A stretch of DNA of 24,000 bases. Origin: Brevibacillus sp. B_LB10_24 (GTDB lineage: Bacteria; Bacillota; Bacilli; Brevibacillales; Brevibacillaceae). Below are positions 9,271 through 23,684 of this stretch, piece by piece. A model generated the notes under the pieces. It did no database searches, was not told the DNA's origin, and saw only the letters and a program-made list of their open reading frames with translations. A program made the position numbers and the translations under genes. The number at the start of each line of letters is the position of its first letter. The first letter of the stretch is position 1. The stretch covers positions 80,719-104,718 of the forward strand of contig NZ_JBJQOQ010000014.1 in assembly GCF_046036945.1 (NCBI RefSeq). Reading direction: 5' to 3'.

Positions 9271-10274
9271 CATGTCCGAATCTCGTCCTCATCGTGGCGG
9301 CAGTACTTGCGGATCAAGCGTGAGGCTTTGGATTGGCTGATTTTTAAATATTCCGCCACTTTCCGCGAGCTTTTGAACCTCTGGTATGACTCGCAAATCA
9401 TTTTCCTCTCTACTTCTGTCATGGCCGAAGCGAGCGAGGGCAGCAGCGTCCGCTCCTGTGGCGTGTGACCGCAGCAGCGAATGGCATCGGGCAAGTCGGG
9501 GACGTCGATCAAGGGATCAGAAGTGACGATCAGCTTTTCCAGCAGGTTTTCCAGTTGGCGGATATTGCCCGGCCAGGGAAACGACAGAAGCAGCTTCAGC
9601 GCTTGGTCGGAGATGCGGTGGAAACTGCCGAACTGCCGGTTGTATTTGTCCAGAAAAAAATGGATCAGCGGCAAAAGGTCGGCCTCCCGCTCGCGCAGCG
9701 GGGGGATTTTGATATCCAACACGTGAAGCCGGTAGTAGAGGTCTTCGCGAAACAGCTTCTTTTGCACCATCTCCTGCAGGTCGCAATTGGTCGCGGTCAC
9801 GATCCGGACATCTGCCTTTCTGGGTTCGCGCCTGCCGAGCGGAATGTATTCGCGGTGCGAAAGGAAGTGGAGCAGCTTTGGCTGCAGGTGCAGCGGCAGT
9901 TCGCCGATTTCATCCAAAAACAGGGTGCCGTGGTTGGCTGCTTCGATCAGGCCGATTTTTCCCTGCTTCAAGGCGCCGGTAAACGCCCCGGGCGAATAGC
10001 CGAACAATTCGGCTTCCAGCAAATTCTCCGGAATCGCCGAGCAGTTAATCGTGAGAAACGGCTGCTTCCGGCGGGAGCTGAAGCGGTGAATGAACTGGGC
10101 CAGGACGCTTTTTCCCGTACCGGTCTCGCCGTGCAGGAGAACGGTTGAGTCCACAGCAGCGGCCTTCCGGCACAGACGCAGCACCTTCTTCATGGCTTCG
10201 CTGTGGACGACAAGGGGCTGGTTTTGGTCTTCCAAGACTTGCGCTGTCGTCGGCAATGCTTTTGAAATATCCAC
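9270..10274 (-). CDS. Sigma-54-dependent transcriptional activator (bEBP) lacking an N-terminal sensory domain
   Basis: Walker A GETGTGKS, sigma-54 contact loop GAFTGA, Walker B LFLDEIGE, C-terminal Fis-type HTH (SRKVAEYLKISQSKASRLIRKY). The AAA+ core begins ~20 aa from the N-terminus. ORF-track TTG 10301 has no RBS; GTG 10274 has GGGGTGA ~7 nt upstream. Confidence 0.9.
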   Translation of the reverse strand: MDISKALPTTAQVLEDQNQPLVVHSEAMKKVLRLCRKAAAVDSTVLLHGETGTGKSVLAQFIHRFSSRRKQPFLTINCSAIPENLLEAELFGYSPGAFTGALKQGKIGLIEAANHGTLFLDEIGELPLHLQPKLLHFLSHREYIPLGRREPRKADVRIVTATNCDLQEMVQKKLFREDLYYRLHVLDIKIPPLREREADLLPLIHFFLDKYNRQFGSFHRISDQALKLLLSFPWPGNIRQLENLLEKLIVTSDPLIDVPDLPDAIRCCGHTPQERTLLPSLASAMTEVERKMICESYQRFKSSRKVAEYLKISQSKASRLIRKYCRHDEDEIRT

Positions 10275-10302
10275 TACGCTCTCACCCCTGTATATCCGCA
10301 AG

Positions 10303-10644
10303 CTATTGGGGAAGGTTTTGGCGGCCCGGGCTCTCCGCCAGGTTGAGCAGGACTACACCTACAATAATGATGGCGATCGCCAGCAGCCTGAGGGGGCTGA
10401 CCGATTCTTTCCAGAGTATGATGCCGATGACTACAGTCAGGGCGGTGCCCACTCCGGACCAAATGGCGTAAGCGGTGCCGAGCGGCAGGTATTTCAACGC
10501 GAGGGACAGGATGTAGAAAGAAGCGGCGTATCCGATGACCACGACCGTGCCGGGAACCCATTTGGTAAACCCCTCGGATAATTTCAATGCGGTGGTTGCG
10601 GTAATCTCCAGGAGTATGGCCGATGCCAAATAGACGAATTTCAT
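10303..10644 (-). CDS. SMR family small multidrug / quaternary-cation efflux transporter (EmrE/Qac subtype)
   Basis: 113 aa from ATG 10644 (RBS AAGGGGGA). Four TM segments, membrane-embedded Glu in TM1 (AILLEITATTALK), KLSEGF and AYAIWSGVG motifs as in EmrE. Confidence 0.9.
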   Translation of the reverse strand: MKFVYLASAILLEITATTALKLSEGFTKWVPGTVVVIGYAASFYILSLALKYLPLGTAYAIWSGVGTALTVVIGIILWKESVSPLRLLAIAIIIVGVVLLNLAESPGRQNLPQ

Positions 10645-11192
10645 CTCGCTTCCCCCTTCGACATGCTGATCAACAAATGCTGTACGCGCTCCCGCAGCTC
10701 GCCGTTCGTCAGCGGAGCCAGCCCAAACATCTCGGCGAACCACAAACCGTCGGCGGCCAGCCGGCAGATGGTCGCTGCTTCAGGGTCAATCCCGTCTCGT
10801 TCCAATTGTTCCTGCCAGCCTGCGTAGTAACGCCGGACAGGCTCCAACAGTTCCGGCTTGTTTACCAGTGCGGCCAGCAAGCCGGCGCTGATCTTCAATT
10901 CCTGCTCGGTACTGCGGAAGGTGGTGCGGACGTAGGCGCGCGCCCACTTCCCTGGGGAGTGGGGCTCCTGGGAGATGTCGTCCTCTATTTGCTGATGGTA
11001 TTCCTTGAACAAGTGATCGATCATACCCTCGATCAAGGCTTCCTTCGAGGGGAAGTGATACAAGAGGCCGCCTTTGCTGATATTCGCTTGCCCGGCAACC
11101 GCATCCAGCGTCAAACGGCCGATCCCCTCGTTTTGGATCAGGGCGTAAGCTGCTTCGAGAATCGTTTCGCGGGTTGTTTTTGTAGCTCCCAC
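10641..11192 (-). CDS. TetR/AcrR family transcriptional regulator
   Basis: GTG start with RBS AAAGGCGGT. N-terminal TetR HTH (TRETILEAAYALIQNEGIGRLTLDAVAGQANISKGGLLYHFPSKEAL). Its stop overlaps the SMR start (ATGA at 10641-10644). Confidence 0.9.
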   Translation of the reverse strand: MGATKTTRETILEAAYALIQNEGIGRLTLDAVAGQANISKGGLLYHFPSKEALIEGMIDHLFKEYHQQIEDDISQEPHSPGKWARAYVRTTFRSTEQELKISAGLLAALVNKPELLEPVRRYYAGWQEQLERDGIDPEAATICRLAADGLWFAEMFGLAPLTNGELRERVQHLLISMSKGEAR

Positions 11193-11430: not shown

Positions 11431-12855
11431 ATGGAACGCATTTTTGTGAACGGGCAATTTGCCGACAGCACAGCGGAAAAAAGCAAGGTGATCGTCAATC
11501 CTGCAACGGAGGAGGAGATTGCCGAAATCCCGCTGTGCGGGGAAAAAGACGTGGAGCAGGCAGTAGCCGCGGCCCGGAAAGCCTTTTTCAGCTGGGGAGC
11601 GACGACACCGGCAGAGCGAAGCGCCCTCCTGCTGAAAATTGCCGATCGGGTGGAGCAGCATCTGGAGAGCCTGGCGCTGATCGAATCGCAGAATGTCGGC
11701 AAACCACTCGAGGTCGCAAGGTTTGACGTGTGTGCCTTTGTCGATAATCTGCGCTTTTTTGCCGGAGCCGCCCGAACGCTGCAGGGCTTGAGCTGTGGCG
11801 AATACATGGAGGGACACACCAGCATGATCCGGCGCGAGCCCGTGGGCGTCGTCGGTTCCATCACGCCATGGAATTACCCGCTGCTGATGGCCGGCTGGAA
11901 GATTGGTCCAGCTCTGGCCGCAGGCAACACAGTGGTGCTCAAACCGTCGGAGTTGACTCCCCTGTCAGCGTTGAAGCTGGCGGAGCTGACGGCAGACCTG
12001 CTCCCGCCGGGCGTGTTGAATGTCGTCACAGGGCTTGGCGAGGAAGCGGGAGCGGCGTTGGCCAGGCATCCCGGCGTGCACATGATCTCGCTCACCGGTA
12101 GCGTCAGGGCGGGCAAGGCGGTTGCCCGGGAAGCGTCCGCCGCCTTGAAAAAAGTGCACCTGGAGTTGGGCGGTAAGGCTCCCGTGGTCATATTTGACGA
12201 TGCCGACCTTGACGAAGCCGTGAACGGGATTCGCCTGGCCGGATTTTCCAACAGCGGACAGGATTGTACGGCGGCCGCCAGAATTTATGTGGAAAAAGGA
12301 TCGTACGAAGCGCTCCTGGACAAACTTGCAGCCGCAGCCCAGAGCATCGTCGTAGGTGATCCGCTGACGGAAGGGACGGAGATGGGGCCGCTGGTCTCGC
12401 AGGAACATCTGGAAAGAGTCGCCGGTTTTGTCGAGCGCGCCCGGAGCAAGCCCCAGGTACAGGTACTTGCCGGAGGGGAGAGGCTAGAGGGCCGCGGATT
12501 TTTCTACAAGCCGACAGTGCTTGCGGGGGTCAGCCAGAGCGATGAGATTATCCGGGAAGAAGTGTTTGGTCCCGTGGTGACCGTCATGCCGTTTGCTTCC
12601 GAGGATGAGGCAATGGAGCTTGCCAACGACTGTCAATATGCGCTGTCCACGTCTGTCTGGACACAGAACACGTCGCGGGCGATGAAATTCGTCAAACAGC
12701 TTCAGTACGGAACCGTCTGGGTCAATACCCACTTCCTGCTGACCAGTGAAATGCCGCATGGCGGTTTCAAAAATTCCGGTTATGGCAAGGATCAATCGAT
12801 CTATGCCGTCGAGGAGTACACCGAGATCAAACACGCCATGATTCGCTTTGCATAA
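11431..12855 (+). CDS. NAD-dependent aldehyde dehydrogenase, gamma-aminobutyraldehyde dehydrogenase (PatD/YdcW)-like
   Basis: 474 aa. RBS GGGAGGA. ALDH motifs ELGGKAP and catalytic GQDCTAA. Long stretches match my recollection of E. coli PatD (EGHTSMIRREPVGVV, PWNYPLLMAGWKIGPALAAGN, VWVNTHF..SEMPHGG.K.SGYGKD). Confidence 0.92.
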   Translation: MERIFVNGQFADSTAEKSKVIVNPATEEEIAEIPLCGEKDVEQAVAAARKAFFSWGATTPAERSALLLKIADRVEQHLESLALIESQNVGKPLEVARFDVCAFVDNLRFFAGAARTLQGLSCGEYMEGHTSMIRREPVGVVGSITPWNYPLLMAGWKIGPALAAGNTVVLKPSELTPLSALKLAELTADLLPPGVLNVVTGLGEEAGAALARHPGVHMISLTGSVRAGKAVAREASAALKKVHLELGGKAPVVIFDDADLDEAVNGIRLAGFSNSGQDCTAAARIYVEKGSYEALLDKLAAAAQSIVVGDPLTEGTEMGPLVSQEHLERVAGFVERARSKPQVQVLAGGERLEGRGFFYKPTVLAGVSQSDEIIREEVFGPVVTVMPFASEDEAMELANDCQYALSTSVWTQNTSRAMKFVKQLQYGTVWVNTHFLLTSEMPHGGFKNSGYGKDQSIYAVEEYTEIKHAMIRFA

Positions 12856-12883
12856 CCATCAGCGAAACGGAGGTTGACTTGTT

Positions 12884-14008
12884 TTGAAGCAGGATTTCGT
12901 TCAGCTGCAGCATCGCTACCATGAAGATGTGGAGCGCTCTTACACACTGCCCTCTTATTTTTACTTCGACCCTGCTGTCCTGGAGGCGGAGCGGAAGGAG
13001 ATTTTCGAAAAAAGTTGGATTTGCGTCGGCCATGAGGAGAAAGTAAGGGAGCCGGGAGATTATTTTACCGTGTCGCTGTTCGACCAGAATATCGTAATCA
13101 TCAGAGGAAAGGATCAGGTCGTGCGGGCTTTTTACAATGTCTGCCCGCATCGCGGCCACGAATTGGTAAGCGGGGAGGGCAACAAGCCGCTGATCGTCTG
13201 CCCGTACCACGCATGGAGCTTTCAGCTTGACGGCCGCTTTCACAACGGCAGGGCTGTCCGCCAAATGAAGCAGTTCGACGAGCAGGAAGCTTGTTTGCGC
13301 CCTGTCCAAGTGGAGCGCTTTGCCCATTTCCTGTTTGTCAATCTCGATCCTGCGGCGAAGCCGCTGCAAGAAATGATTCCGGGAGTGGAAGAAGAAATCC
13401 GGCAGCGCGTACCCGTTCTGGACAAATTGACGCTATCGCACAGAATCTCCTATGAGATCAAAGCCAATTGGAAAAACGTGCTCGACAACTACCTGGAGTG
13501 CCATCACTGTGCCGTTGCCCATCCGCAGTTTGTGGAGATTGTCGATATGGCCAAGTACCGACTGAAGACGTTCGACTACCACATCCTGCAGACCGGTGCA
13601 GGCAAAAAAAGGCTTGGCAGCAACCGGACGCCTGATGATCAGGAAAACGCTGTGGCCATGTATACCTCCTATTGGCTGTGGCCCAACCTGGCGATTGACA
13701 TCATGCCGGGAGAACCCGGGCTGATCGTCATGCATGTACTGCCTGACGGTCCCGAGACAACGGTGCAGCACCTGGAGTTTTACTATTTGCAGAAGGAGCC
13801 GACGCAGGAGGGATGGGCCAATATCGAATATCAGGACAAAGTGCTGAATCCGGAAGATTTTGCCCTGGTGGAAAGCGTGCAGCGGGGGCTGCGTTCCAAG
13901 GGATACGCTGACGGGCGCTACGTCGTCGACCAGGATCGTTCGTCTATCAGCGAGCATGCCGTGCACCACTTTCACGGACTCGTGCTGAAAGCTTTGGGAG
14001 CGCGCTAG
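12884..14008 (+). CDS. Rieske [2Fe-2S] non-heme-iron oxygenase, alpha/oxygenase component (CntA/YeaW/GbcA-like)
   Basis: TTG start 10 nt after GGAGG. Rieske motif CPHRGHEL...CPYHAWSF. Mononuclear iron motif NYLECHHCAVAHP. Segments AFYNVCPHRGH, ANWKNVLDNYLEC and PEDFALVESVQRGLRSKGY resemble carnitine/gamma-butyrobetaine oxygenase YeaW/CntA as I recall it. Confidence 0.9.
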   Translation: MKQDFVQLQHRYHEDVERSYTLPSYFYFDPAVLEAERKEIFEKSWICVGHEEKVREPGDYFTVSLFDQNIVIIRGKDQVVRAFYNVCPHRGHELVSGEGNKPLIVCPYHAWSFQLDGRFHNGRAVRQMKQFDEQEACLRPVQVERFAHFLFVNLDPAAKPLQEMIPGVEEEIRQRVPVLDKLTLSHRISYEIKANWKNVLDNYLECHHCAVAHPQFVEIVDMAKYRLKTFDYHILQTGAGKKRLGSNRTPDDQENAVAMYTSYWLWPNLAIDIMPGEPGLIVMHVLPDGPETTVQHLEFYYLQKEPTQEGWANIEYQDKVLNPEDFALVESVQRGLRSKGYADGRYVVDQDRSSISEHAVHHFHGLVLKALGAR

Positions 14009-14046
14009 GACGCGTTCCCCCACATGCGAATGGAGGGCGACAAACC

Positions 14047-15387
14047 TTGGAGAAGAGAACGGGACTGCAAAGGCAGTTAAAGCTTTGGCATGTATTCGCC
14101 CTGGGTCTGTCACTGATGGTTCCCACCACTGTTTTTGATACCTATGGGATCGCCGCCGGCTCTACCGGCGGCCACGTCCCGACTGCCTATCTGTTCAGCA
14201 TGGCGGCCATTCTGTTCACGGTGCTGAGCTACGCCCACATGGTGAAGGTATTTCCGGGAGCTGGATCGGCATACACGTATGCCCAGCAGACATTTAACTC
14301 CAGTATCGGCTTCCTCGTCGGGTGGGCGGCGCTTTGCGACTACCTGTTTTTGCCGATGCTGTACGCTTTGACCGCAGAAATCTATTTGTCGTCTCTGTTT
14401 CCGGAAGTGCCGAGCTGGTGCTGGATTGTGCTTACCGTGCTGTTTTTCACCCTGGCCAATATCTTCCAGGTAAAGGTTACGGTCTCGTTCAATGCTGTTT
14501 TCGTCGTGTTTCAAGTATTGATCACGGTCGTGTTCATCGCTTTGCTGATTCGGGAGCTGCTGGGAGGCACGGCTGCCGGCTTTTCGCTGCAGCCGTTCTA
14601 TTCCGCCAGTCTGAACTGGTCTGCTGTCCTGGCCGGTTCGGTGATCCTCTCCTACTCCTTTATCGGGTTCGACGCGCTCAGCACGTTGTCGGAAGAAACC
14701 CTGGAACCGAGAAAGACCATACCCCGCGCCATGATCATCCAGACGTTGTTTTTGGGCGCGATGTACACCGCTGTCACCTATTTTATGCAGTCACTTTTTC
14801 CCGATGTATCGATTTTCAACGATCCGGAAGGGGCTTCTCCGGAGATCGCCCAGCGGATCGGCGGAATGCTGTTCGCGTCGGTCTTCGCGGCGATCACCGT
14901 CACAGGCAACATGGTGGGCGGGATTGCCGCCCAGCTGAGCACATCCCGTTTGCTCTATGCGATGGGGCGGGACAACGTCATTCCCAAAAAGCTGTTCGGG
15001 TATATTCATCCCCGTACCGGGGTACCTGTGTTCAACGTCATTCTCGCCGGACTGTTTTCGCTGTCGGCCAGCTTTTTCGACCTGGAAACTGCCATCTCCT
15101 TCTTCAGTTTTGGCGCCTATACGGCCTTCACTTTTGTCAATCTGTCCGTCATCGCCTATTTCATCGTTCAGAAAAAAATGCGTTCCTGGCGTGCGATTCT
15201 CTTTTACCTGGCCGGTCCGATGATCGCCATCAGCTTCATCGCCGTGCTTTGGACCCATATGAACGGGAAAGCGCTGGTGCTTGGCATTATCTGGAATGTA
15301 TGCGGACTGGTGTATCTGCTTTATTTGACCAAGCTGTTCACCAGGCAGCCACCCCGCTTCCAATTTGAAGAGCATATCAATCAATGA
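14047..15387 (+). CDS. APC superfamily permease, PuuP/PlaP-like putrescine/polyamine importer
   Basis: 446 aa, TTG start 9 nt after GGAGGG, ~12 TM segments. Segments LKLWHV, TVFDTYGI, GHVPTAYL, FPGAGSAYTYAQ, IYLSSLFPEVP and SRLLYAMGRDNV match recalled E. coli PuuP. Confidence 0.9.
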   Translation: MEKRTGLQRQLKLWHVFALGLSLMVPTTVFDTYGIAAGSTGGHVPTAYLFSMAAILFTVLSYAHMVKVFPGAGSAYTYAQQTFNSSIGFLVGWAALCDYLFLPMLYALTAEIYLSSLFPEVPSWCWIVLTVLFFTLANIFQVKVTVSFNAVFVVFQVLITVVFIALLIRELLGGTAAGFSLQPFYSASLNWSAVLAGSVILSYSFIGFDALSTLSEETLEPRKTIPRAMIIQTLFLGAMYTAVTYFMQSLFPDVSIFNDPEGASPEIAQRIGGMLFASVFAAITVTGNMVGGIAAQLSTSRLLYAMGRDNVIPKKLFGYIHPRTGVPVFNVILAGLFSLSASFFDLETAISFFSFGAYTAFTFVNLSVIAYFIVQKKMRSWRAILFYLAGPMIAISFIAVLWTHMNGKALVLGIIWNVCGLVYLLYLTKLFTRQPPRFQFEEHINQ

Positions 15388-15469
15388 AGAATTCGAAATT
15401 TAAAAATTATTCCCTTAAATTGCGTGTATAATAGAGACAGAAAACTCGCTTGATGGGGGGATTGTGGGA

Positions 15470-17038
15470 ATGAGTGATTTGAACCGGGCCAGAAGAAATA
15501 CGCTTGGGGATATTTTGCGACGGAGCAGAGCGCGCTATCCGGACAAGACGGCGCTGAATTTTGAAGGAGAGGTCTTGTCCTACCGGCAGTTGGACGATGC
15601 GGTTAACCAGGCGGCGAACGCGATCCTGGCCCAAGGACTGAAAAAAGGGGACCGTGCTGCCGTCCTCTCCCGCAACTCGCTCGATTTTGCCATTCTCAAT
15701 TTCGCGTTGGCCAAGTCTGGTGTGATCATGGTGCCGATCAACTACATGCTCAATGTTGACGACGTGGCGTTTATTCTCAGCCATGCAGATGTAAGCGCTC
15801 TCTTCGTCTCGCCGGAGTTCCAGCCGATCGCCGAGCAAGCCGTCCCCAAATCGGGCTGCACGCTGCGGCTGAAGTCGCTCATTTCCAGACCTTCGGCACA
15901 AATCGGGGAGTGGGTTCCATTTCGCGAGCTGATCAGCGGGGCCGAGCTGGCGGAGCCGGAAGCGGAGCTTTGGGATGACGACGTCGTTCACATCCTGTAT
16001 ACGAGCGGCACCGAGTCCAAGCCAAAAGGCGTCATGCTCACCCATAAAAACGTAATCAGCGAGTATGTCAGTACCATCATCGACGGCGGCATGACGAGTG
16101 ACGATGTGGCGATCCATGCGCTTCCCTTGTTTCACTCTGCCCAGCTGCACTGCTTTTTGGGGCCGTACATCTACCTCGGGGCCAGCGGCATCATCCTGGA
16201 ACAAGCCGCGCCTGCGACGATCCTGGAGGCGATTGAGACGCATCGGGCAACACAGCTGTTCTGTCCGCCGACCGTCTGGATCGCCCTGCTGCGTTCCCCC
16301 GACTTCGACCGGCGCGATCTCTCCTCTCTGCAAAAATGCTACTACGGAGCGGCGATCATGCCCGTCGAGGTGCTGAGGGAATGCAACCTGCGGCTGCCGT
16401 CAGCCCGCTTCTGGAATTTTTACGGGCAGACCGAGGTCGCTCCGCTGGCGACGGTACTCAAACCGGAAGACCAGATCAGAAAAGCGGGCTCGGCGGGAAA
16501 GCCCGGCCTGAATGTGGAGACCAGAATCGTCGATGACAACGGCGACGAGGTGCCCCGCGGCCAGATCGGCGAGATCGTGCACCGCACAAGTCACGCCATG
16601 CTGGGCTACTACCGGGACGAGGAGAAGACGGCAGCGGCTTTTCACGGCGGATGGTTTCACAGCGGGGACTTGGGCATCATGGATGAAGAAGGGTACATCA
16701 CCGTCGTGGATCGCAAGAAAGACCTGATCAAATCAGGCGGGGAAAACGTCGCCAGCCGGGAAGTGGAAGAGTTGATCTATCAGCATCCGAAAGTATCGGA
16801 GGTGGCGGTGATCGGCGTCCCCCATCCCTACTGGATCGAAGCGGTTACCGCCGTAGTGGTGCCCAAATCAGGCGAATTGCTCGGACCGGAAGACATCCTG
16901 CTGTTTTGCAAGGAGCATTTGTCCTCGTTTAAATCTCCCAAGTACGTCGTCATCGCCGACAATCTGCCGCGCAATCCGAGCGGCAAAATTCTGAAACGGG
17001 AGCTTCGCGCGCAGTATCAATCGATTGCCGCAGATTGA
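15470..17038 (+). CDS. AMP-dependent acyl-CoA synthetase/ligase (class I adenylate-forming enzyme)
   Basis: ATG 15470 lies 8 nt after GGGGGGA (the ORF-track ORF starts at GTG 15464). AMP-binding motif YTSGTESKPKGV; also YGQTE, GDLG..DEEGY and the C-terminal PRNPSGKILKRELR. TATAAT at 15427-15432 upstream. I saw no terminator hairpin between the permease and this gene. Confidence 0.92.
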   Translation: MSDLNRARRNTLGDILRRSRARYPDKTALNFEGEVLSYRQLDDAVNQAANAILAQGLKKGDRAAVLSRNSLDFAILNFALAKSGVIMVPINYMLNVDDVAFILSHADVSALFVSPEFQPIAEQAVPKSGCTLRLKSLISRPSAQIGEWVPFRELISGAELAEPEAELWDDDVVHILYTSGTESKPKGVMLTHKNVISEYVSTIIDGGMTSDDVAIHALPLFHSAQLHCFLGPYIYLGASGIILEQAAPATILEAIETHRATQLFCPPTVWIALLRSPDFDRRDLSSLQKCYYGAAIMPVEVLRECNLRLPSARFWNFYGQTEVAPLATVLKPEDQIRKAGSAGKPGLNVETRIVDDNGDEVPRGQIGEIVHRTSHAMLGYYRDEEKTAAAFHGGWFHSGDLGIMDEEGYITVVDRKKDLIKSGGENVASREVEELIYQHPKVSEVAVIGVPHPYWIEAVTAVVVPKSGELLGPEDILLFCKEHLSSFKSPKYVVIADNLPRNPSGKILKRELRAQYQSIAAD

Positions 17039-17669: not shown

Positions 17670-17702
17670 ACCCCCAGTCAGCAGCTGGGGGTTCATTTTT
17701 TT
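17670..17702 (+). terminator. Rho-independent terminator
   Basis: ACCCCCAG (17670-17677) / CTGGGGGT (17685-17692), then TCATTTTTTT. Confidence 0.8.
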
Positions 17703-17871
17703 GCGGCCCCGCATCGGACCATCTCCCTTGTGTCCAAGCCTACCATCCTTGTCTCTCCAGACAAAAGGCTTTCTATGGCATATTCTCTGGTATGGAGCAA
17801 CTGAAATACCGGCCACTCCGCATAAAAATCGGTCGTGTGGCAGGTAAACGTCAAATCATATATAATATTTC

Positions 17872-17897
17872 TAAGTTAATGAAACTTATCAAACTTA
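17872..17897. promoter_or_regulatory. Palindrome plus extra half-site upstream of the MerR-fusion gene (candidate operator)
   Basis: TAAGTTaatgaAACTTA (17872-17888), then a third AACTTA at 17892-17897. It lies just downstream of a TATAAT at 17861-17866 and ~60 nt upstream of ATG 17953. Confidence 0.3.
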
Positions 17898-17952
17898 CAG
17901 AATCGTGTTGATTTCTATTCATGTGGAAGATATTTAGGGAGGGTAACGCAAA

Positions 17953-18738
17953 ATGAAATTGTTAAATATCTCAGAGGCAGCCAAACTTCTTGGGATTTCA
18001 GCCAGCACGCTGCGCAGACTGGAACATGACGGCGTTGTGGAAGGATACGGATTGAGTGTGATTTATACACCGGGGGGGCAGCGCAGGTACATTTTAGACG
18101 AAATACAGCATCTGTATTCACAGCAGGGCTTCTCCGGACAAATCGGATTTGGCGGCAAACCGGCTGTGCTTGTTCGCGACATGACTTTGGCTTTTACGGA
18201 TCCGAATTCTAAATTATCCATCCAGTTAAACGGCCAGATTGAAGCGGTAACACAACTGGTTAAAACTGCTCTTGCCAATCATTTTCCGGTTGTTTTCAGC
18301 AAGACCATCTACGACTCGGCAGATAAATTTTCACAGCTTTGGGGACAAAAATTTCCTTCCATACAGCTGCTTGACCGTAATACGGCATGGGTGAAAATTC
18401 ATCCTACATTAGATGAATTTACGTATGACATGGTTAACGCAACCACTTACATTAACGATTTTTACTGCTCACCGCTGGATGAGTTTCTGCAGCAAAGAGA
18501 AATCGATACGGTCATATTGGCTGGAACCACAACGAGCGGCAGCATCCGGGCAAATGCCGTGGAAGCCCTGCAGCGCGGGTATCGTGTCATCATTCCAGAA
18601 GAAGCTGTCGGCGACCGTTCCGAATCGATTCAAAGAGCGACCCTTCTCGACTTGCATGCGCGTTACGCTGATGTCATGACGTTGGAAAAAGTGTTGAAAT
18701 GCGTGAACGAAGCGGGATCACTAAGAAAATCGAAGTAA
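17953..18738 (+). CDS. MerR-type HTH domain fused to an isochorismatase-like (CSHase/NicF/PncA-branch) domain with Cys-to-Ser at the nucleophile position
   Basis: 261 aa, RBS AGGGAGGG. N-terminus ISEAAKLLGISASTLRRLEHDG...GGQRRY is a MerR/excisionase-type HTH. The C-terminal ~190 aa carry the isochorismatase-family strands PAVLVRDMTLAFTDP and VILAGTTTSGSIRANAVEA. The usual TxxC(V/I) nucleophile reads TSGSI. Confidence 0.85.
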   Translation: MKLLNISEAAKLLGISASTLRRLEHDGVVEGYGLSVIYTPGGQRRYILDEIQHLYSQQGFSGQIGFGGKPAVLVRDMTLAFTDPNSKLSIQLNGQIEAVTQLVKTALANHFPVVFSKTIYDSADKFSQLWGQKFPSIQLLDRNTAWVKIHPTLDEFTYDMVNATTYINDFYCSPLDEFLQQREIDTVILAGTTTSGSIRANAVEALQRGYRVIIPEEAVGDRSESIQRATLLDLHARYADVMTLEKVLKCVNEAGSLRKSK

Positions 18739-19083
18739 AGGTGTTTCACATCTTCCCCTGAAAGTGTGCCAAGCTGCCTGGGCTGCCGCCAAGACAAGGA
18801 ATACCTTGGTCAATGCTACACCTGCATTGGTCAAACTCGGCGCATAGGCGGCTTTCTTGGAGGGGCGGGCATGTAGAGAACCAAATTGGTTTCGTGCTGC
18901 TGCTCCCGTGAGAGCGTGCTTCGGTTTCTCCCCTTGTTTTTCCCCCTTTTTTCCTACCCAGAGAATTCTCTCTCAGCCCAAACTTGAAGGACAAATCTCC
19001 TTGCATCTGAATGCGATTCCCCGAACAGGTAACGCGATCTTCGTTGTTGCCGCGGCCAATGTTATGCTGACTTTTTCTATGAT

Positions 19084-19097
19084 CCCCCCCCCCCCCC
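19084..19097. repeat. Homopolymeric C14 (G14 on the minus strand) tract
   Basis: Counted directly: 14 consecutive C residues, 37 nt upstream of the -35 box at 19135. Confidence 0.95.
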
Positions 19098-19134
19098 GTT
19101 TTTAATAGGATTTCAAAATTTAGAATAGATTGCG

Positions 19135-19163
19135 TTGACAGACAATTCACAATAGATTATAAT
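19135..19163 (+). promoter_or_regulatory. Perfect consensus sigma-A promoter (TTGACA-17-TATAAT)
   Basis: TTGACA at 19135-19140, a 17-nt spacer, TATAAT at 19158-19163. Flanked or overlapped by 8-bp direct repeats AATAGATT (19124-19131 and 19151-19158). The nearest downstream gene start is ATG 19432. Confidence 0.7.
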
Positions 19164-19192
19164 CAGGAACGAAAAGATTAGTAAATTTGATC

Positions 19193-19366
19193 ATGTTTGG
19201 TAACTTTCATTTCAACAAAATGTTTCAAATGATTGGAAAAGTTATGAAAAACCTCCTCAAATACCCGATTATACATCCGCTAAATATGGACATTTTTGGA
19301 ATCGATAGTCGGGATTTGCAGCCAAATGTTGAAACAGGGGTGAGCGAATACTGCCAAATGGACTAG
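19193..19366 (+). CDS. Hypothetical 57-codon ORF inside the long leader (doubtful)
   Basis: Hand translation: MFGNFHFNKMFQMIGKVMKNLLKYPIIHPLNMDIFGIDSRDLQPNVETGVSEYCQMD. A stop-free run in AT-rich sequence, but no recognisable RBS. It is below the ORF-track length cut-off. Confidence 0.15.
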   Translation: MFGNFHFNKMFQMIGKVMKNLLKYPIIHPLNMDIFGIDSRDLQPNVETGVSEYCQMD

Positions 19367-19431: not shown

Positions 19432-20670
19432 ATGAACAAGTCTTTTCGTGTCGGTATTATCGGTGGCGGTATTGGCGGGGTTGCTTTGGCGCGAGCCCTG
19501 TGGCAACGCGGCATTTCTTTTCGGTTGTTTGAACAGGCAGCGGAGTTCAGGGAAGTTGGCGCCGGTATCCAAATGACGCCGAATGCTGTGAAGGTATTGA
19601 AATCACTCGGGCTAGCAGACGAAATGAAGCGGGTCGGTTTCTTGCCGGAAGCGATGGTGGGCCGCGGTTGGGAGACAGGCGAGGAGTTATTTCGGACTCC
19701 CTTAAAAGATACGTTTGTCCAACTTTTTGGTGCTCCGTACTATCACGTGCACCGCGCTGACCTGCACAGTATCTTGACAGAAGGATTACCGGAAGAGTGC
19801 ATTACTTTTCATGTGAGATGTGTAGATGTCCAACTTAAGGGCGATAAGGCCGTTGCTGTATTTGACAATGGAGATGAATTCGAGGCTGACCTGATTGTCG
19901 GTGCGGACGGAATACGTTCTGCTGTCCGGGAAGGGTTGTGGGGCAAGGATGATCCGGCATTTACCGGGCATATGTGTTGGCGTGCGCTCGTTCCGGTCGA
20001 CAAGCATCCGCTGCCTTTCGTTCTGCCGGCAGTAACCTTTTGGTTTGGTCCCAAAGCACATGTGGTCACCTATTACGTCAAGGGCGGTCAGGCAGTAAAT
20101 ATCGTTGCCTGCAAAGAGACAGATGAATGGGTGAAAGAGTCATGGACAGAGCCCAGTTCGACTGAAGAACTATTGAAGGCGTACGATGGTTGGCATTCTG
20201 ACTTGATTCGTCTGTTCGAACGCACAGACAATTCACAGGTTTTCAAGTGGGGATTGTATGACCGCAATCCAATGGAGCGCTGGTCCCAAGGTCATGCGAC
20301 GCTCCTGGGTGACGCTGCCCATCCTATGCTTCCATACTTATCGCAGGGTGCCGCGATGGCGATAGAAGATGCTTATGTCCTCGCTGAAGCTCTTGTTCAT
20401 TTTGGCGGGAACGTACCCCTGGCATTGGACGCGTACGAAGCAGAACGACGCAATCGCACCCGGGACGTACAGCTGCAATCCCGTGAAAGAGGCCGTACCT
20501 ATCATCTGGAATCGCCTGAGGAACAACGGCAGCGGGATCTTGCTTTACGGGAGCGGCAGAGCCAAGATCCGAATGCGGTTGGCATCAGTGCCGAGTGGGT
20601 GTACGAGTACGACGCGACCACCTGCCGTCAGCGTTTTGGGGTATCTTCAGGCGTTAGCTTGAAGGAATAG
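19432..20670 (+). CDS. FAD-dependent aromatic hydroxylase (group A flavoprotein monooxygenase; salicylate hydroxylase / 3-hydroxybenzoate 6-hydroxylase / NicC-like)
   Basis: 412 aa, RBS GGGGGGAG. GxGxxG (IIGGGIGG), GADGIRS, LLGDAAHPMLPYLSQGAAMAIEDA. Segment-level resemblance to recalled NicC (FEQA..F...GAGI, HRADLH, WVYEYD). Confidence 0.92.
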   Translation: MNKSFRVGIIGGGIGGVALARALWQRGISFRLFEQAAEFREVGAGIQMTPNAVKVLKSLGLADEMKRVGFLPEAMVGRGWETGEELFRTPLKDTFVQLFGAPYYHVHRADLHSILTEGLPEECITFHVRCVDVQLKGDKAVAVFDNGDEFEADLIVGADGIRSAVREGLWGKDDPAFTGHMCWRALVPVDKHPLPFVLPAVTFWFGPKAHVVTYYVKGGQAVNIVACKETDEWVKESWTEPSSTEELLKAYDGWHSDLIRLFERTDNSQVFKWGLYDRNPMERWSQGHATLLGDAAHPMLPYLSQGAAMAIEDAYVLAEALVHFGGNVPLALDAYEAERRNRTRDVQLQSRERGRTYHLESPEEQRQRDLALRERQSQDPNAVGISAEWVYEYDATTCRQRFGVSSGVSLKE

Positions 20671-20724
20671 TAGGTTTGGTAATTTTCGGTAAATTTTTTA
20701 AAGTTCGAAATAGGGGGGATCAGC

Positions 20725-21543
20725 TTGAACGATAAGGAGCTTTTCGGACAAATGTTAGTCAAAGGCCTTAACGCGGATATCCATTTACTTACCAAAGGCG
20801 ACAGCAACGGGGTACCGGTTCTTTTTCTTCCGGGCATTACAAGCTACAGTATGTCATTTTCGGAAATTCTAAAGCGGATGCCTGATCACTTCTACTGTTT
20901 GTCCATGGATATCCGCGGGCGCGGGAAATCCAGCTGGCCCAAACAGGGATACCGCATGCAGGATTACGTTGAGGATTTGCTCAATGTGGTGAATGCGTTA
21001 ACGAGAAATCAGACGGCACCATTCCTTGTCGGCCATTCCATGGGGGCGAGAATTGCAGCCGGTTTTGGCAGCGCATACTCATCTCTCATTTCCGGTATGG
21101 TGCTCATCGACCCCCCGGTTACCGGTCCGGGTCATCGACAAGTTTACCCCAATTCCCTCTCCATGTTTCTGGAACAAAAAGCCGCGGCAGACGAAGAGGA
21201 ATGGGACAAATTTCGCGCCTTTTATCCGCACTTTACGGAAGAACAACGGAAGATACGAATTACCGAATACCTGAACGTAAGCAAGGAAGCGATCATCGAA
21301 TCGTACAACAACTTTATCAAAGAACCTTTTCAGGTCCATGTAAAATTGACAACTTGTCCCATGCTGCTGTTAGCCGCTGAACTTGGAGATACAATTCGTC
21401 CTGATGAACTTGCCGAGTTGAAGTCTCTCAATTCCCGTTTGCAGGCCGTTGTCGTGAACGGCGTTGGTCACATGGTATACAAGGAGGCACCTCAGGTAAC
21501 AGCGGAATCTATCATCTCTTTCATCAGCGATCATCTGAAATAA
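20725..21543 (+). CDS. Alpha/beta hydrolase fold protein
   Basis: 272 aa, TTG start after GGGGGGA. Nucleophile elbow GHSMGA, C-terminal GVGHMV His motif. 54-nt gap to the hydroxylase with no terminator. Confidence 0.9.
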   Translation: MNDKELFGQMLVKGLNADIHLLTKGDSNGVPVLFLPGITSYSMSFSEILKRMPDHFYCLSMDIRGRGKSSWPKQGYRMQDYVEDLLNVVNALTRNQTAPFLVGHSMGARIAAGFGSAYSSLISGMVLIDPPVTGPGHRQVYPNSLSMFLEQKAAADEEEWDKFRAFYPHFTEEQRKIRITEYLNVSKEAIIESYNNFIKEPFQVHVKLTTCPMLLLAAELGDTIRPDELAELKSLNSRLQAVVVNGVGHMVYKEAPQVTAESIISFISDHLK

Positions 21544-21621: not shown

Positions 21622-22797
21622 TTGAAAAAATTATTATCGATGTTGTCAGTGATGTCACTGCTTTCATTGATTCTGGCTGGCTGCGGAACGGACAATTCTG
21701 CAGCGTCGACGGGAAGTGGCGGAAATAGCGGAGGAACGTTGACTTTGGGTTATGTCGGCGGGCTGAGCGGGGCGACGGCCGCTTTCGGAAAACCGGCATT
21801 CGATGCGGTAAAATACGCTGTCGATGAAATCAACGAAAACGGTGGAATCCTTGGGCAGACAGTAAAACTGGTTTCGGAAGACGACGAAGGGAATCCGTTT
21901 AAAGGACAGCAGGCGATCGACAAATTTGCCAACCGGGATATCAAGTTTGTGATCAGCGGATCGAGCAGCGCGGTTGCTTTGTCACAGGTAGCCAAAGTGA
22001 AGGAAAACAATATGATTGCCGTGTCGCCGATCGCGTCGGATCCGGGAGTCGTATCGGAAAATCCGCGATTCTTTGTGAATTTGGCCAACAATAACCAGTT
22101 TGGCTGGTCAGCCGCCTACTATGCCGCCAAAGAGATGGGCGTGAAAGAAGTGATCGCTTTTATCCGGGATGACGCTTTTGGTACCAGTGTTTATAAAGCT
22201 TTCGAAGAAAAATCAGCGGAGTTGGGCATGAAAATTGTGAAAGAATTCAAGTATCCCGCTGACGCAAAAGACTTTAATTCATACATTAGCCAAGGCATCA
22301 GTTCAAACCCGAATGCCTACATATTTTTGACAGGCTATGCAGCGGACAGCGGATTGATCGCGAAACAGGCAAGAGCGCTGGGTTATGACAAACCGTTCAT
22401 CGCCACAAACCCAATCTCCAGTCCACAGTATTACGAGATCGCCGGTGATGCGTCCAATAATACCATGATCAGTGCGGCCTATATATCCGACACCAATATT
22501 AGTGAAAAAACGAAAGCGTTTATCGAAGCATGGAAAAGTAAATTTAACATGGAGCCCAACGTTTATCAGGTGCATGGATACGACTCCGTTTATATCCTGA
22601 AGACCGCGATCGAAAAAGTGGGATCTGCCGCCCCGGACGAAGTGCAAAAGGAACTCCTGAACATCAAAAACTATGAAGGAGCTTCAGGGCTCACATCCTT
22701 TAACGATGACGGTTCGGCAACCAAACCGATTTTCGTGGTGAATTGGGATAACGGACAGTTGAAATTGGAAAAAGTCCTTCAAGCCGGTTCGTATTAA
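21622..22797 (+). CDS. ABC transporter substrate-binding lipoprotein (LivK/Peripla_BP_6 type)
   Basis: TTG start ~8 nt after AAAGGGG. Signal peptide with lipobox LILAGC. 391 aa, typical of the branched-chain amino acid/amide/aromatic-acid binding protein family. Confidence 0.92.
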   Translation: MKKLLSMLSVMSLLSLILAGCGTDNSAASTGSGGNSGGTLTLGYVGGLSGATAAFGKPAFDAVKYAVDEINENGGILGQTVKLVSEDDEGNPFKGQQAIDKFANRDIKFVISGSSSAVALSQVAKVKENNMIAVSPIASDPGVVSENPRFFVNLANNNQFGWSAAYYAAKEMGVKEVIAFIRDDAFGTSVYKAFEEKSAELGMKIVKEFKYPADAKDFNSYISQGISSNPNAYIFLTGYAADSGLIAKQARALGYDKPFIATNPISSPQYYEIAGDASNNTMISAAYISDTNISEKTKAFIEAWKSKFNMEPNVYQVHGYDSVYILKTAIEKVGSAAPDEVQKELLNIKNYEGASGLTSFNDDGSATKPIFVVNWDNGQLKLEKVLQAGSY

Positions 22798-22808
22798 GGA
22801 GGGTTACG

Positions 22809-23684
22809 GTGTATTTTGACATCTTCGTTAGTGGTCTCGCCGTCGGATGCATTTACAGTTTAATTGCGATGTCGTTTAGTCTCATCTTTCGTTCGTCGGG
22901 CGTATTAAACATTGGCACTGGTGAGTTTGTCATGATCGGAGGGCTTGTCGGGTTCAGTCTGATGACCAATGTCACGCAAAATTTTTACCTTGTCATGCTG
23001 CTAACCATGGCCATTGCCGGTCTAATCGGCTACTTGTCGAATGTACTTGTATTTCATCCGGTGCAAAAGCGCGGCGGGCAAAGCATTCATGTCTTGATGG
23101 CCAGCATCGGAATCATGATTATTTTGCCGCAGATCGGCTCATTGGTCTGGGGAGCGGAGCCGTTGAGTTTTCCAAGCAGTCTATCCGCAGGTCAGGTTCA
23201 GTTGGGCAGCGCGAAGATTTCCGGCATCAGTTTTTTGATCATTCTGTTAAGTATCTTCATTATGATTTTGTTTCAGTTATTCTTTAAATTTACCCGTATC
23301 GGTCAGGCGATGAGAGCCATAGCAGACGATCGCGTCATGTCACAGCTGCTTGGGGTGAATCACCGCAAATACATCGCGCTCATCTTCCTGGTAGCCGGAG
23401 CCTTGACCGGAGTCGCAGGTGTCCTCTTAGGTCCGCTCTATTTTGTTTCTTATGATATGGGGATCATTGGCATCAAGGCGTTTGCGGCGGCTGTATTAGG
23501 CGGGTTTGGCAATATCATGGGAGCGGTCATTGGCGGCATCTTGCTCGGATTGATCGAGGCATTCGGCGGAACGATGATCAGTTCGGAATTTCGCGATCTG
23601 ATCTTGTACGCGATATTGATCCTGGTGCTGCTGATCCGTCCCACCGGCATACTGGGCATAAAGAAACGGAGGGATACCGCTTGA
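22809..23684 (+). CDS. Branched-chain-type ABC transporter permease (LivH-like)
   Basis: 291 aa polytopic membrane protein. GTG start after GGAGGG. Confidence 0.92.
   Translation: MYFDIFVSGLAVGCIYSLIAMSFSLIFRSSGVLNIGTGEFVMIGGLVGFSLMTNVTQNFYLVMLLTMAIAGLIGYLSNVLVFHPVQKRGGQSIHVLMASIGIMIILPQIGSLVWGAEPLSFPSSLSAGQVQLGSAKISGISFLIILLSIFIMILFQLFFKFTRIGQAMRAIADDRVMSQLLGVNHRKYIALIFLVAGALTGVAGVLLGPLYFVSYDMGIIGIKAFAAAVLGGFGNIMGAVIGGILLGLIEAFGGTMISSEFRDLILYAILILVLLIRPTGILGIKKRRDTA

What the first reader, a model, noticed from the sequence alone, without database searches (positions are those of the whole stretch)
17953..18738. MerR-type HTH fused to an isochorismatase-like amidohydrolase domain whose nucleophile Cys is replaced by Ser: candidate enzyme-derived ligand sensor
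Seen: residues 1-55 form a MerR/excisionase-type HTH (ISEAAKLLGISASTLRRLEHDG, GGQRRY). After a Gly-rich linker, the rest aligns by eye with the N-carbamoylsarcosine amidase / maleamate amidohydrolase (NicF) / nicotinamidase branch. The Asp strand is PAVLVRDMTLAFTDP and the nucleophile strand is VILAGTTTSGSIRANAVEA, followed by GYRVIIPEEAVGDR. Established knowledge: this family uses an Asp-Lys-Cys triad, with the Cys in T-x-x-C-V/I. Here that position is Ser (TSGSIR). Where I would place the catalytic Lys (just before Y-x-x-x-F), the sequence reads NATTYINDFY, with no Lys. Inference: the domain probably binds an amide or acid without turning it over and acts as the effector and dimerisation module of a one-component regulator. 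It also lacks the long MerR dimerisation helix. I do not know of a characterised MerR-isochorismatase regulator.
Basis: partly seen in the sequence, partly recalled or inferred. Interest (0 to 1): 0.7.

Follow-up and report, generated by a model that had tools for sequence, protein, structure and literature searches.

The report
Dead amidase turned gene-switch sensor
This gene encodes a DNA-binding domain fused to an inactivated copy of a vitamin-B3-breakdown enzyme, most likely an uncharacterised switch for the neighbouring nicotinate-degradation genes, although databases label it an enzyme.

Summary
ORF 17953-18738 (+) encodes 261 aa. Residues 1-57 form a MerR-like winged HTH. The rest is an isochorismatase-fold domain closest in structure to maleamate amidohydrolases (Ami, NicF). 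The enzyme triad Asp-Lys-Cys reads Asp76-Thr164-Ser197.

This is family-wide. In 83 fusion homologs Asp is 83/83, the Lys position is never Lys (77 Thr), and the Cys position is Ser in 80. All 33 standalone paralogs next to these genes keep Asp-Lys-Cys.

The fusion sits beside 2,5-dihydroxypyridine/maleamate pathway genes: nicC-like and nicD-like in the window, then nicX, nicE and an intact nicF in the 96% ortholog locus.

The HTH is of the BldC/CarH type, with no coiled coil. I found a conserved candidate operator of tandem 9-bp direct repeats, AAGTTTGRTAAGTTT. It lies just downstream of the -10 box of the fusion gene's own promoter and of the nic promoters, in Bacillales and Enterobacterales.

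Best reading: a ligand-released repressor whose sensor is a dead NicF copy. The inducer is probably maleamate or a close analogue, but that is inferred. No characterised example was found in the literature searched. I rate it a new variant of a known kind, with moderately high interest.

The parts
17953..18738 (+). Gene for the 261-aa fusion protein: a BldC/CarH-type MerR-like wHTH joined to a catalytically dead NicF-like isochorismatase-fold domain.
   Evidence: It is 100% identical to an 'isochorismatase family protein' of Brevibacillus sp. B_LB10_24.
17953..18123 (+). Winged helix-turn-helix domain, residues 1-57. It contains the motifs S16-x-S18-T19-L20-R21-R22 and Y38-T-P-G-G-Q-R-R-Y46, most positions of which are invariant in the family.
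   Evidence: Pfam MerR 29.2 bits and HTH_17 27.5 bits. NCBIfam HTH_BldC E 9e-4 over the whole model. The profile hits CarH 5c8d/3whp and BldC 6ama/6amk. Secondary structure. Invariant columns.
18163..18687 (+). Isochorismatase-fold (cysteine-hydrolase-like) domain, residues 71-245, taken to be the effector-binding and oligomerisation module.
   Evidence: Pfam 83.3 bits. Foldseek top hits are Ami 4l07/4l08 and NicF 3ot4/3uao, with target TM 0.91-0.92 and rmsd about 2 A.
18178..18180 (+). Codon of Asp76, the catalytic Asp position, which is retained.
   Evidence: Asp in 83/83 homologs.
18442..18444 (+). Codon of Thr164, which occupies the catalytic Lys position.
   Evidence: alignments to 1nba and 26st. 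Thr 77, Ser 3, Asn 2, Leu 1 and Lys 0 of 83.
18541..18543 (+). Codon of Ser197, which occupies the nucleophile Cys position.
   Evidence: Ser 80, Cys 2, Gly 1 of 83. It is Ala in most of the roughly 40%-identity subfamily.
17837..17866 (+). Promoter-like site of the fusion gene (GTGGCA-18-TATAAT).
   Evidence: A terminator-like hairpin of the upstream DinB-family gene at 17670-17692 isolates the transcription unit.
17873..17900 (-). Predicted operator O1. Read on the minus strand it is tGTAAGTTT|GATAAGTTT|CATTAACTT, tandem 9-bp units. It starts 7 nt after the -10 box.
   Evidence: Zero-mismatch match to AAGTTTGRTAAGTTT at 17882-17896. It is the only cluster of AACTT/AAGTT half-sites with 9-11 bp spacing in the 24 kb window. 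It is conserved in orthologous loci L004 and L082.
19135..19163 (+). Consensus sigma-A-type promoter (TTGACA-17-TATAAT) of the nicC-like operon.
   Evidence: 12 of 12 matches.
19174..19207 (+). Predicted operator O2: two weaker matches to the repeat (AAGATTAGTAAATTT and ATGTTTGGTAACTTT), 11-44 nt downstream of the -10 box. An inverted partner AAAGTTATGAAA lies at 19238-19249.
   Evidence: GGTAACTTT is conserved in L004. L082 carries TAACTTTAACAAGATTTTGTAAGTTTGA at the same place.
20672..20686 (+). Weaker operator-like match (AGGTTTGGTAATTTT) in the nicC-nicD intergenic gap.
   Evidence: 2 mismatches. All 4 window matches fall in these three regulatory regions; chance expectation is 0.88.
19432..20670 (+). 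Predicted target gene: FAD-dependent decarboxylative hydroxylase, NicC-like (6-hydroxynicotinate 3-monooxygenase type).
   Evidence: PDB 5eow/8uiq 6-hydroxynicotinate 3-monooxygenase at E 4e-64 to 8e-65, among several related hydroxylases.
20725..21543 (+). Predicted target gene: alpha/beta hydrolase, NicD/Nfo-like N-formylmaleamate deformylase.
   Evidence: Best PDB hit is 4l0c 'Deformylase' at E 1e-28. It falls in cluster c3, found in 18 of the fetched loci.
21622..23684 (+). Start of a branched-chain/amide-type ABC transporter (binding protein 21622-22797, permease 22809-23684) inside the nic-like operon. In ortholog locus L004 it is followed by nicX, nicE and nicF.

Best explanation
The gene encodes a one-component transcription factor, most likely a repressor, for the 2,5-dihydroxypyridine/maleamate branch of nicotinate (vitamin B3) catabolism.

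Its N-terminal 57 residues are a MerR-like winged HTH of the BldC/CarH type, with no coiled coil. The rest is a copy of the pathway's own maleamate amidohydrolase (NicF). That copy has lost the catalytic Lys (now Thr164) and the nucleophile Cys (now Ser197), but keeps the Asp and most residues conserved in the intact enzymes.

Shown by computation:
- the architecture and fold;
- loss of the triad across the family;
- a single origin of the fused clade next to the intact NicF clade;
- genomic linkage to nic genes;
- a conserved array of tandem 9-bp direct repeats, (G/A)TAAGTTTG, placed 5-15 nt downstream of the -10 box of the gene's own promoter and of the nic promoters.

Inferred:
- the dead-enzyme domain oligomerises as its enzyme relatives do, into dimers or tetramers;
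- it presents several HTHs that bind the repeats head-to-tail and block transcription;
- binding of a pathway amide or acid, most likely maleamate or a close analogue, without turnover changes the arrangement, releases the DNA and induces the operon.
For: Architecture and fold:
- Domain calls and a high-confidence model, pLDDT 93.2.
- The closest structures are maleamate amidases Ami and NicF, target TM 0.91-0.92.

Loss of catalysis:
- The triad columns read D 83/83, K 0/83 and C 2/83 in fusion homologs.
- Every HTH-fused protein in 57 loci lacks Lys. All 33 standalone neighbours have D-K-C.
- The distant subfamily has Ala at the nucleophile position.
- In the related enzyme BiuH, a Cys-to-Ser change gives an inactive protein that still binds substrate (PMC5806882).

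Ligand site probably kept:
- 34 positions are identical in the fusion and NicF clades, including D76, F81, W130, K133, Y166, R199, D221 and R222.

Genomic context:
- The Bacillales clusters contain NicX (7cn3, E 8.5e-98), a NicD-like deformylase (4l0c), a NicC-like hydroxylase, NicE-like maleate isomerase and an intact NicF.

DNA-binding mode:
- The nearest solved HTH relatives are CarH and BldC.
- Each BldC protomer binds a 9-bp direct repeat, head-to-tail (PMC5859096).

Operator:
- The exact 14-mer AAGTTTGRTAAGTT occurs once each in 22 of 82 fetched loci.
- The unit density is 3.1 per kb upstream of cluster genes, against 0.75 per kb in other promoter regions and 0.29 per kb in coding DNA.
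- The same motif precedes the ABC-amidase-fusion operon in Enterobacterales.
- Sites lie just downstream of -10 boxes.
Against: - No experiment supports any step: DNA binding, ligand binding and loss of activity are all inferred.
- The HTH Pfam scores are only just above threshold.
- The PDB profile hits to CarH and BldC are weak (E 0.003-0.015).
- The operator motif was first derived from regions upstream of the fusion genes, so enrichment there is partly circular. The hits upstream of other genes are the independent part. The motif could in principle belong to another factor.
- Ser could still act as a weak nucleophile.
- Ligand identity is a guess from ancestry. In Proteobacteria the partner genes are an amidase-signature amidase and an NMT1-type ABC transporter rather than nic genes, so the ligand may differ there.
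- A few loci (L006, L010, L058, L080) show no intact NicF within 10 kb.
- Activator function cannot be excluded; BldC acts both ways.
Confidence: 0.7

Rival explanations
1. Bifunctional protein: it is still an amidase, using Ser197 with Asp76, as well as a DNA-binding regulator. This would resemble PutA or BirA, so catalysis and regulation would be coupled.
For: - Asp76 is invariant, and Ser and Thr are strongly conserved rather than drifting.
- Some loci pair the fusion with nicE or nic genes but show no standalone NicF within 10 kb (L080; L006 and L010).
- Two early-branching members keep Cys (L039, L061).
Against: - No member has the catalytic Lys.
- The distant subfamily has Ala at the nucleophile position, and one representative has Asn for the Asp.
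- Cys-to-Ser inactivates the related enzyme BiuH.
- Intact D-K-C paralogs sit in most of the Bacillales loci and in all 8 distant-subfamily loci, including the 96% ortholog locus of this window.
Confidence: 0.08
2. The dead-enzyme domain is only an oligomerisation scaffold and binds no effector. The protein would be a constitutive or otherwise-controlled DNA-binding protein.
For: - Enzymes of this fold form stable dimers and tetramers (BiuH tetramer).
- A BldC-like HTH needs help to multimerise.
- No ligand has been shown.
Against: - Residues conserved in the intact enzymes (D76, F81, W130, K133, Y166, R199, R222), which I take to line the pocket, are 96-100% conserved in the fusion clade, and the replacement residues Thr164 and Ser197 are themselves conserved. 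A pure scaffold should let these drift.
- The gene is consistently tied to catabolic operons, which normally need an inducer signal.
Confidence: 0.1
3. Same architecture and ligand sensing, but the protein is an activator rather than a repressor. It would work either by MerR-style promoter remodelling or by BldC-style DNA bending.
For: - Classical MerR proteins are activators.
- BldC both activates and represses.
- In Enterobacterales some repeat units overlap a possible -35/-10 spacer.
Against: - In the window and in eight other Bacillales promoters examined, the repeats start downstream of a near-consensus -10 box. The -35 boxes are good and the spacers are 17-18 bp, so these promoters should not need activation.
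- No 19-20 bp spacer typical of MerR-activated promoters was seen.
Confidence: 0.12

Closest known systems
NicF / Ami maleamate amidohydrolases, and N-carbamoylsarcosine amidohydrolase (isochorismatase-like cysteine hydrolases; PDB 3uao, 3ot4, 4l07, 1nba, 26st)
   Same: - Same fold (Foldseek target TM 0.91-0.92) and 27-28% structural-alignment identity.
- phmmer E 1e-35 to 4e-20.
- Shared N-terminal GF-G-G segment, the catalytic Asp and 34 conserved positions.
- Same gene neighbourhood (nicX, nicD, nicE, nicC).
   Different: - The catalytic Lys is replaced by Thr and the nucleophile Cys by Ser, so the defining triad is not met.
- It carries an N-terminal DNA-binding domain that no characterised member has.
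BldC (Streptomyces; PDB 6ama, 6amk), the founding member of the BldC family of MerR-like regulators
   Same: - MerR-like winged HTH without a coiled coil.
- The wing motif GGQRRY matches BldC's GGHRRY.
- The NCBIfam HTH_BldC model is matched end to end, though weakly.
- The predicted operator is tandem 9-bp direct repeats, the unit length that each BldC protomer binds.
   Different: - BldC is a 68-residue protein with no effector domain and no known ligand. This protein has a roughly 200-residue enzyme-derived domain.
- The repeat sequence differs: TAAGTTTG here, AATTnnnnC for BldC.
- Sequence similarity is weak (E 0.014).
CarH / LitR light-dependent regulators (PDB 5c8d, 3whp)
   Same: - Best PDB sequence match of the HTH (E 0.003).
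- Same design logic: a MerR-like HTH joined directly to a ligand-binding domain.
- From my own knowledge, not tested here: in CarH the ligand-binding domain controls oligomerisation and CarH binds tandem direct repeats.
   Different: The effector domain in CarH/LitR is a B12-binding domain, not an isochorismatase fold. The signal is light, not a metabolite.
Regulators with enzyme-derived, catalytically inactive sensor domains, such as NrtR (Nudix-like domain plus wHTH, NAD metabolism) and MocR/GabR (aminotransferase-like domain). This comparison rests on general knowledge.
   Same: The concept is the same: a pathway enzyme fold recruited as the effector domain of a one-component regulator for the same metabolic area.
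   Different: The folds and the DNA-binding domains differ. None uses the isochorismatase fold. This comparison was not tested with tools.

Membership tests
Isochorismatase-like (cysteine) hydrolase superfamily | Isochorismatase fold and sequence profile | tested here: met
   Pfam PF00857 at 83.3 bits against a cut-off of 27. The AF2 model matches Ami, NicF and CSHase with target TM 0.73-0.92.
Isochorismatase-like (cysteine) hydrolase superfamily | Asp-Lys-Cys catalytic triad | tested here: not met
   The positions read Asp76-Thr164-Ser197. Lys is 0/83 and Cys 2/83 in fusion homologs. Neighbouring standalone paralogs all have D-K-C.
NicF maleamate amidohydrolase (functional family) | Located in a 2,5-dihydroxypyridine/maleamate pathway gene cluster | tested here: met
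   NicC-like and NicD-like genes are in the window. NicX, NicE and an intact NicF are in ortholog locus L004 and in many other loci.
NicF maleamate amidohydrolase (functional family) | Hydrolyses maleamate to maleate and ammonia | not testable with these tools
   Requires an enzyme assay. The sequence argues against activity (no Lys, no Cys).
Classical MerR family regulators | N-terminal MerR-type winged HTH | tested here: met
   PF00376 at 29.2 bits (cut-off 28.2). PF13411 MerR_1 scores only 17.9 bits, below its cut-off of 21.6. The wHTH topology is present in the model.
Classical MerR family regulators | Long antiparallel coiled-coil dimerisation helix followed by a C-terminal effector-binding region | tested here: not met
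   The model shows only a 10-residue helix (48-57) before the enzyme fold begins at about residue 59. The enzyme alignment starts at residue 53-54.
Classical MerR family regulators | Palindromic operator inside a 19-20 bp -35/-10 spacer | tested here: not met
   Window promoters have 17-18 bp spacers. The conserved repeats are direct and lie downstream of the -10 box.
BldC family (MerR-like wHTH without coiled coil) | MerR-like wHTH lacking coiled-coil and effector domains | tested here: inconclusive
   The HTH resembles BldC (NF033787 E 9e-4, 19.1 bits against a cut-off of 77; PDB 6ama E 0.014) and lacks a coiled coil. Unlike BldC, it is fused to a large domain.
BldC family (MerR-like wHTH without coiled coil) | Head-to-tail binding to 9-bp direct repeats | not testable with these tools
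   Conserved tandem 9-bp direct repeats are found at the target promoters, which fits. Binding itself needs EMSA, footprinting or a structure.

The most novel reading that the evidence does not exclude
This would be the first effector-responsive member of the BldC-type MerR-like regulators. A pathway enzyme (NicF) was duplicated, inactivated by Lys-to-Thr and Cys-to-Ser changes so that it holds its former substrate without turning it over, and fused to a coiled-coil-less wHTH. The resulting oligomer would assemble head-to-tail on arrays of 9-bp direct repeats and would be released by maleamate or a close analogue. This would define a new regulator family, spread between Bacillota and Proteobacteria, with a ready-made operator, regulon and candidate ligand.
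Probability: 0.45. Interest if true: 0.72.

Novelty: new variant of a known kind. Interest (0 to 1): 0.62.

Why it matters
- It gives a concrete, testable candidate for the unknown regulator of nicotinate/2,5-dihydroxypyridine catabolism in Bacillales (Brevibacillus, Neobacillus niacini, Peribacillus, Aneurinibacillus and others). The proposal comes with a predicted operator, regulon and ligand class.
- It is a clean natural example of an enzyme becoming a sensor through the same Cys-to-Ser change that crystallographers use to trap substrate in this enzyme family.
- It extends the BldC/CarH style of MerR-like DNA binding to a metabolite-sensing architecture.
- It exposes a systematic annotation error. 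Pipelines call these proteins 'isochorismatase family protein', 'maleamate amidohydrolase' or 'nicotinamidase-related amidase', which would miscount NicF enzymes in pathway reconstructions.
- If the ligand is confirmed, the domain plus operator could serve as a biosensor part for maleamate-type amides.

Tried and rejected
- I looked for an alternative placement of Lys or Cys in the domain. None exists. Three independent PDB alignments and the family alignment agree.
- I tested whether the fusion might be the cluster's only amidase. Rejected for this lineage: translating the end of ortholog locus L004 revealed an intact NicF (D-K-C) right after nicE.
AACTT-N4-AAGTT palindromes occur in some Bacillales. 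The element conserved across phyla is the tandem direct repeat.
- The direct repeat AATTTAGAATAGATT / AATTCACAATAGATT around the nicC -35 box is poorly conserved in L004, so I did not adopt it as an operator.
- An Rfam scan of the window for a leader RNA in the long nicC 5' region found nothing.
- The two ORFs in the 18740-19150 gap have no Pfam hit and look non-coding.
- Exact look-up of the window protein in the contig collection failed. The afdb50 fold library was unavailable.
- Five literature searches for a characterised MerR-isochorismatase or nic-cluster regulator of this type found none. The library omits most subscription-journal papers, so absence is not proof.
Full report
**1. The observation**

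The ORF at 17953-18738 (+) is real. It has an ATG start and a strong ribosome-binding site, and it encodes 261 aa. It is 100% identical to a protein of Brevibacillus sp. B_LB10_24 that is annotated only as 'isochorismatase family protein'.

Pfam finds an Isochorismatase domain at residues 71-245 (83.3 bits). At the N-terminus it finds MerR (29.2 bits, cut-off 28.2) and HTH_17 (27.5 bits, cut-off 27), so both HTH calls pass only narrowly. NCBIfam gives weak matches to HspR, excisionase and BldC HTH models.

An AlphaFold2 model built on 83 homologs is confident (pLDDT 93.2, pTM 0.80). It shows helix-turn-helix, a beta-hairpin wing and a short helix at residues 6-57, followed directly by the alpha/beta enzyme fold.

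phmmer alignments to solved N-carbamoylsarcosine amidohydrolases (26st, E 1e-35; 1nba) and to maleamate amidases (4l07/4l08; NicF 3ot4) fix the active-site positions. Asp76 aligns with the catalytic Asp. Thr164 aligns with the catalytic Lys. Ser197 aligns with the nucleophile Cys, reading TTSGS where the enzymes read TTSGC.

By structure, the closest solved proteins are the maleamate amidases Ami and NicF (target TM 0.91-0.92, rmsd about 2 A).

**2. The pattern holds across the family and separates fusions from enzymes**

A database search returned about 83 full-length fusion homologs. They come from Bacillales (Brevibacillus, Paenibacillus, Schinkia, Neobacillus, Aneurinibacillus, Peribacillus, Alicyclobacillus, Sporosarcina and others) and from Enterobacterales (Brenneria, Klebsiella, Symbiopectobacterium). 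Loci fetched later add Salinicola and Pusillimonas.

In their alignment:
- Asp76 is 83/83.
- Position 164 is Thr 77, Ser 3, Asn 2, Leu 1, and never Lys.
- Position 197 is Ser 80, Cys 2, Gly 1.

I fetched 76 genomic loci and called genes in them. Every HTH-fused protein lacks the Lys and nearly all lack the Cys. A subfamily at about 40% identity mostly has Ala there. All 33 standalone paralogs encoded nearby have Asp-Lys-Cys.

A neighbour-joining tree (no bootstrap) places all fused domains in one clade, sister to the standalone enzymes of the nic clusters. This suggests one duplication, fusion and inactivation event.

Thirty-four positions are conserved and identical in both clades, including D76, F81, W130, K133, Y166, R199, D221 and R222. 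The conserved differences include K-to-T164 and C-to-S197.

In the related enzyme BiuH, a Cys-to-Ser variant is inactive but still binds substrate. The same paper gives the NicF triad as Asp29/Lys117/Cys150 (PMC5806882).

In a library of 1.84 billion representative proteins, only about five representatives carry the fusion. The family is therefore small.

**3. Genomic context**

In the window, the fusion gene has its own promoter. It is followed by:
- a NicC-like FAD hydroxylase at 19432-20670; 6-hydroxynicotinate 3-monooxygenase is among its top PDB hits, E about 1e-64;
- a NicD/Nfo-like deformylase at 20725-21543; its best PDB hit is 4l0c, E 1e-28;
- an ABC transporter.

The 96%-identical locus in Brevibacillus massiliensis (L004) continues with NicX (7cn3, E 8.5e-98), a maleate-isomerase-like NicE, and a standalone NicF with an intact Asp-Lys-Cys triad.

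Other Bacillales loci combine the fusion with NicX, NicE, NicD-like, NicC-like or HpaB-like hydroxylases, an intact NicF and a transporter. In one Paenibacillus the fusion is paired only with the maleate isomerase.

In Enterobacterales the fusion is the last gene of an operon that encodes an NMT1-type ABC transporter and an amidase-signature amidase.

**4. The DNA-binding domain and its predicted operator**

A profile of the N-terminal 60 residues finds CarH/LitR (E 0.003) and BldC (E 0.014) as the nearest solved relatives. The wing motif GGQRRY aligns with GGHRRY in BldC.

These are the MerR-like proteins that lack the coiled coil. Each BldC protomer binds a 9-bp direct repeat, head-to-tail (PMC5859096).

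The hexamer TAAGTT/AACTTA is the most enriched word upstream of the fusion genes, more so than TATAAT. The underlying element is a tandem 9-bp direct repeat with consensus AAGTTTGRTAAGTTT.

In the window, the perfect copy lies at 17882-17896 (minus strand), beginning a few bases after the -10 box of the promoter at 17837-17866. With up to 3 mismatches there are four matches in 24 kb, against 0.88 expected by chance. The other three lie just downstream of the nicC promoter (19174-19188 and 19193-19207) and upstream of nicD (20672-20686).

The exact 14-mer occurs once each in 22 of 82 fetched loci. The unit is four times denser upstream of cluster genes (3.1 per kb) than in other promoter regions (0.75 per kb), and ten times denser than in coding DNA (0.29 per kb).

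In Bacillales it precedes the fusion gene, nicC, nicE, nicF, the HpaB-like genes and the TRAP transporter genes. In Enterobacterales, five units in register precede the ABC-amidase-fusion operon: GACAAGTTT|GATAAGTTT|GTCGTATTA|GACAAGTTT|GACAAGTTA.

Across promoters, the repeats start 5-15 nt downstream of good -10 boxes. That is the geometry of a repressor.

The motif was derived from regions upstream of the fusion genes, so enrichment there is partly circular. Its recurrence upstream of other genes, and in a different phylum, is independent.

**5. Mechanism proposed**

*Shown:* the architecture, the dead triad, the conserved residues shared with the enzymes, linkage to the pathway, and a co-travelling operator.

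*Inferred:*
- The NicF-derived domain forms dimers or tetramers, as its enzyme relatives do.
- It positions several HTHs on the tandem repeats and blocks transcription of its own gene and of the nic operon.
- A pathway amide or acid, most simply maleamate (the ancestral substrate), binds in the former active site without hydrolysis and releases the DNA.

Confidence is about 0.8 that this is a regulator with a non-catalytic enzyme-derived sensor. It is about 0.65 that it represses, and about 0.35-0.4 that the ligand is maleamate or maleate.

**6. Rivals**

- A bifunctional Ser-dependent amidase is unlikely. No member has the Lys, a subfamily has Ala at the nucleophile position, Cys-to-Ser inactivates BiuH, and an intact NicF sits alongside.
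- A ligand-free scaffold is unlikely, because the conserved residues shared with the enzymes, and the replacement residues themselves, have not drifted.
- An activator role is possible but does not fit the promoter geometry.

**7. Comparison with known systems, and novelty**

The protein works like an enzyme-derived one-component regulator. It probably binds DNA like BldC or CarH.

It is not a functional member of the NicF or cysteine-hydrolase family, because the triad test fails. It is not a classical MerR either: it has no coiled coil, and its operator is neither palindromic nor inside the promoter spacer.

I found no characterised example in five literature searches. Annotation pipelines label these proteins as enzymes.

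I rate it a new variant of a known kind, with interest about 0.6.

Noticed in passing
window 18739-19134, including a run of 14 C at 19084-19097: About 400 nt of apparently non-coding DNA lies between the fusion gene and the nicC promoter. The ORFs in it have no Pfam hit. The stretch is 74% conserved with indels in B. massiliensis (L004), where the C-run is only 5 long, and it is absent from the 84% ortholog locus L082. It could be a decayed gene or an inserted element. The homopolymer could vary in length or be a sequencing artefact.
   Followed up: partly
window 19117-19131 and 19144-19158: The direct repeat AATTTAGAATAGATT / AATTCACAATAGATT brackets the -35 box of the nicC promoter. The second copy is poorly conserved in L004. 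It might be a site for another regulator, or chance.
   Followed up: partly
window 9270-10301 (-): A sigma-54-dependent activator of only 343 aa. It matches PrdR-type models from model position 261 onward, so it appears to lack any N-terminal sensory domain. It sits next to an SMR-type small transporter gene at 10303-10743 (-).
   Followed up: no
window 11431-17038 (+): A separate catabolic-looking gene run: aminobutyraldehyde-type aldehyde dehydrogenase, a GbcA-like Rieske oxygenase, an amino-acid permease and an acyl-CoA synthetase. A TetR-like gene lies upstream at 10641-11192 (-). No operator-like repeats of the fusion protein were found here.
   Followed up: partly
P0084 (Alicyclobacillus acidoterrestris, 207 aa) and P0090 (202 aa): These are versions of the dead domain (Thr and Ser at the Lys and Cys positions) without any HTH. 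They are either mis-called starts or frameshifts, or free-standing pseudoenzymes.
   Followed up: no
P0235 (623 aa): A protein with eight separate matches to the first ~30 residues of the HTH profile, that is, a tandem array of HTH units.
   Followed up: no
L039, L061 and L044 (Ammoniphilus, Paenibacillus validus, a Bacillaceae MAG): An early-branching fusion subclade with Asp-Ser-Cys or Asp-Thr-Thr at the triad positions. This suggests the Lys was lost before the Cys.
   Followed up: partly
L082 8928-14262: In the 84% ortholog locus, the nic-like genes lie directly beside NAD biosynthesis genes: nadA, a split nadC, nadB, a cysteine desulfurase-like gene and a NiaR-like HTH_11+3H regulator. 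Catabolism and biosynthesis of the pyridine ring are therefore adjacent.
   Followed up: no
L083 (Peribacillus frigoritolerans plasmid 2, NZ_OY970401.1): The whole fusion-regulated cluster (HpaB-like x2, racemase-like NicE, flavin reductase, NicF, FAD synthetase-like gene, alpha/beta hydrolase) is carried on a roughly 250 kb plasmid next to an IS3 transposase. The pathway may therefore be mobile.
   Followed up: partly
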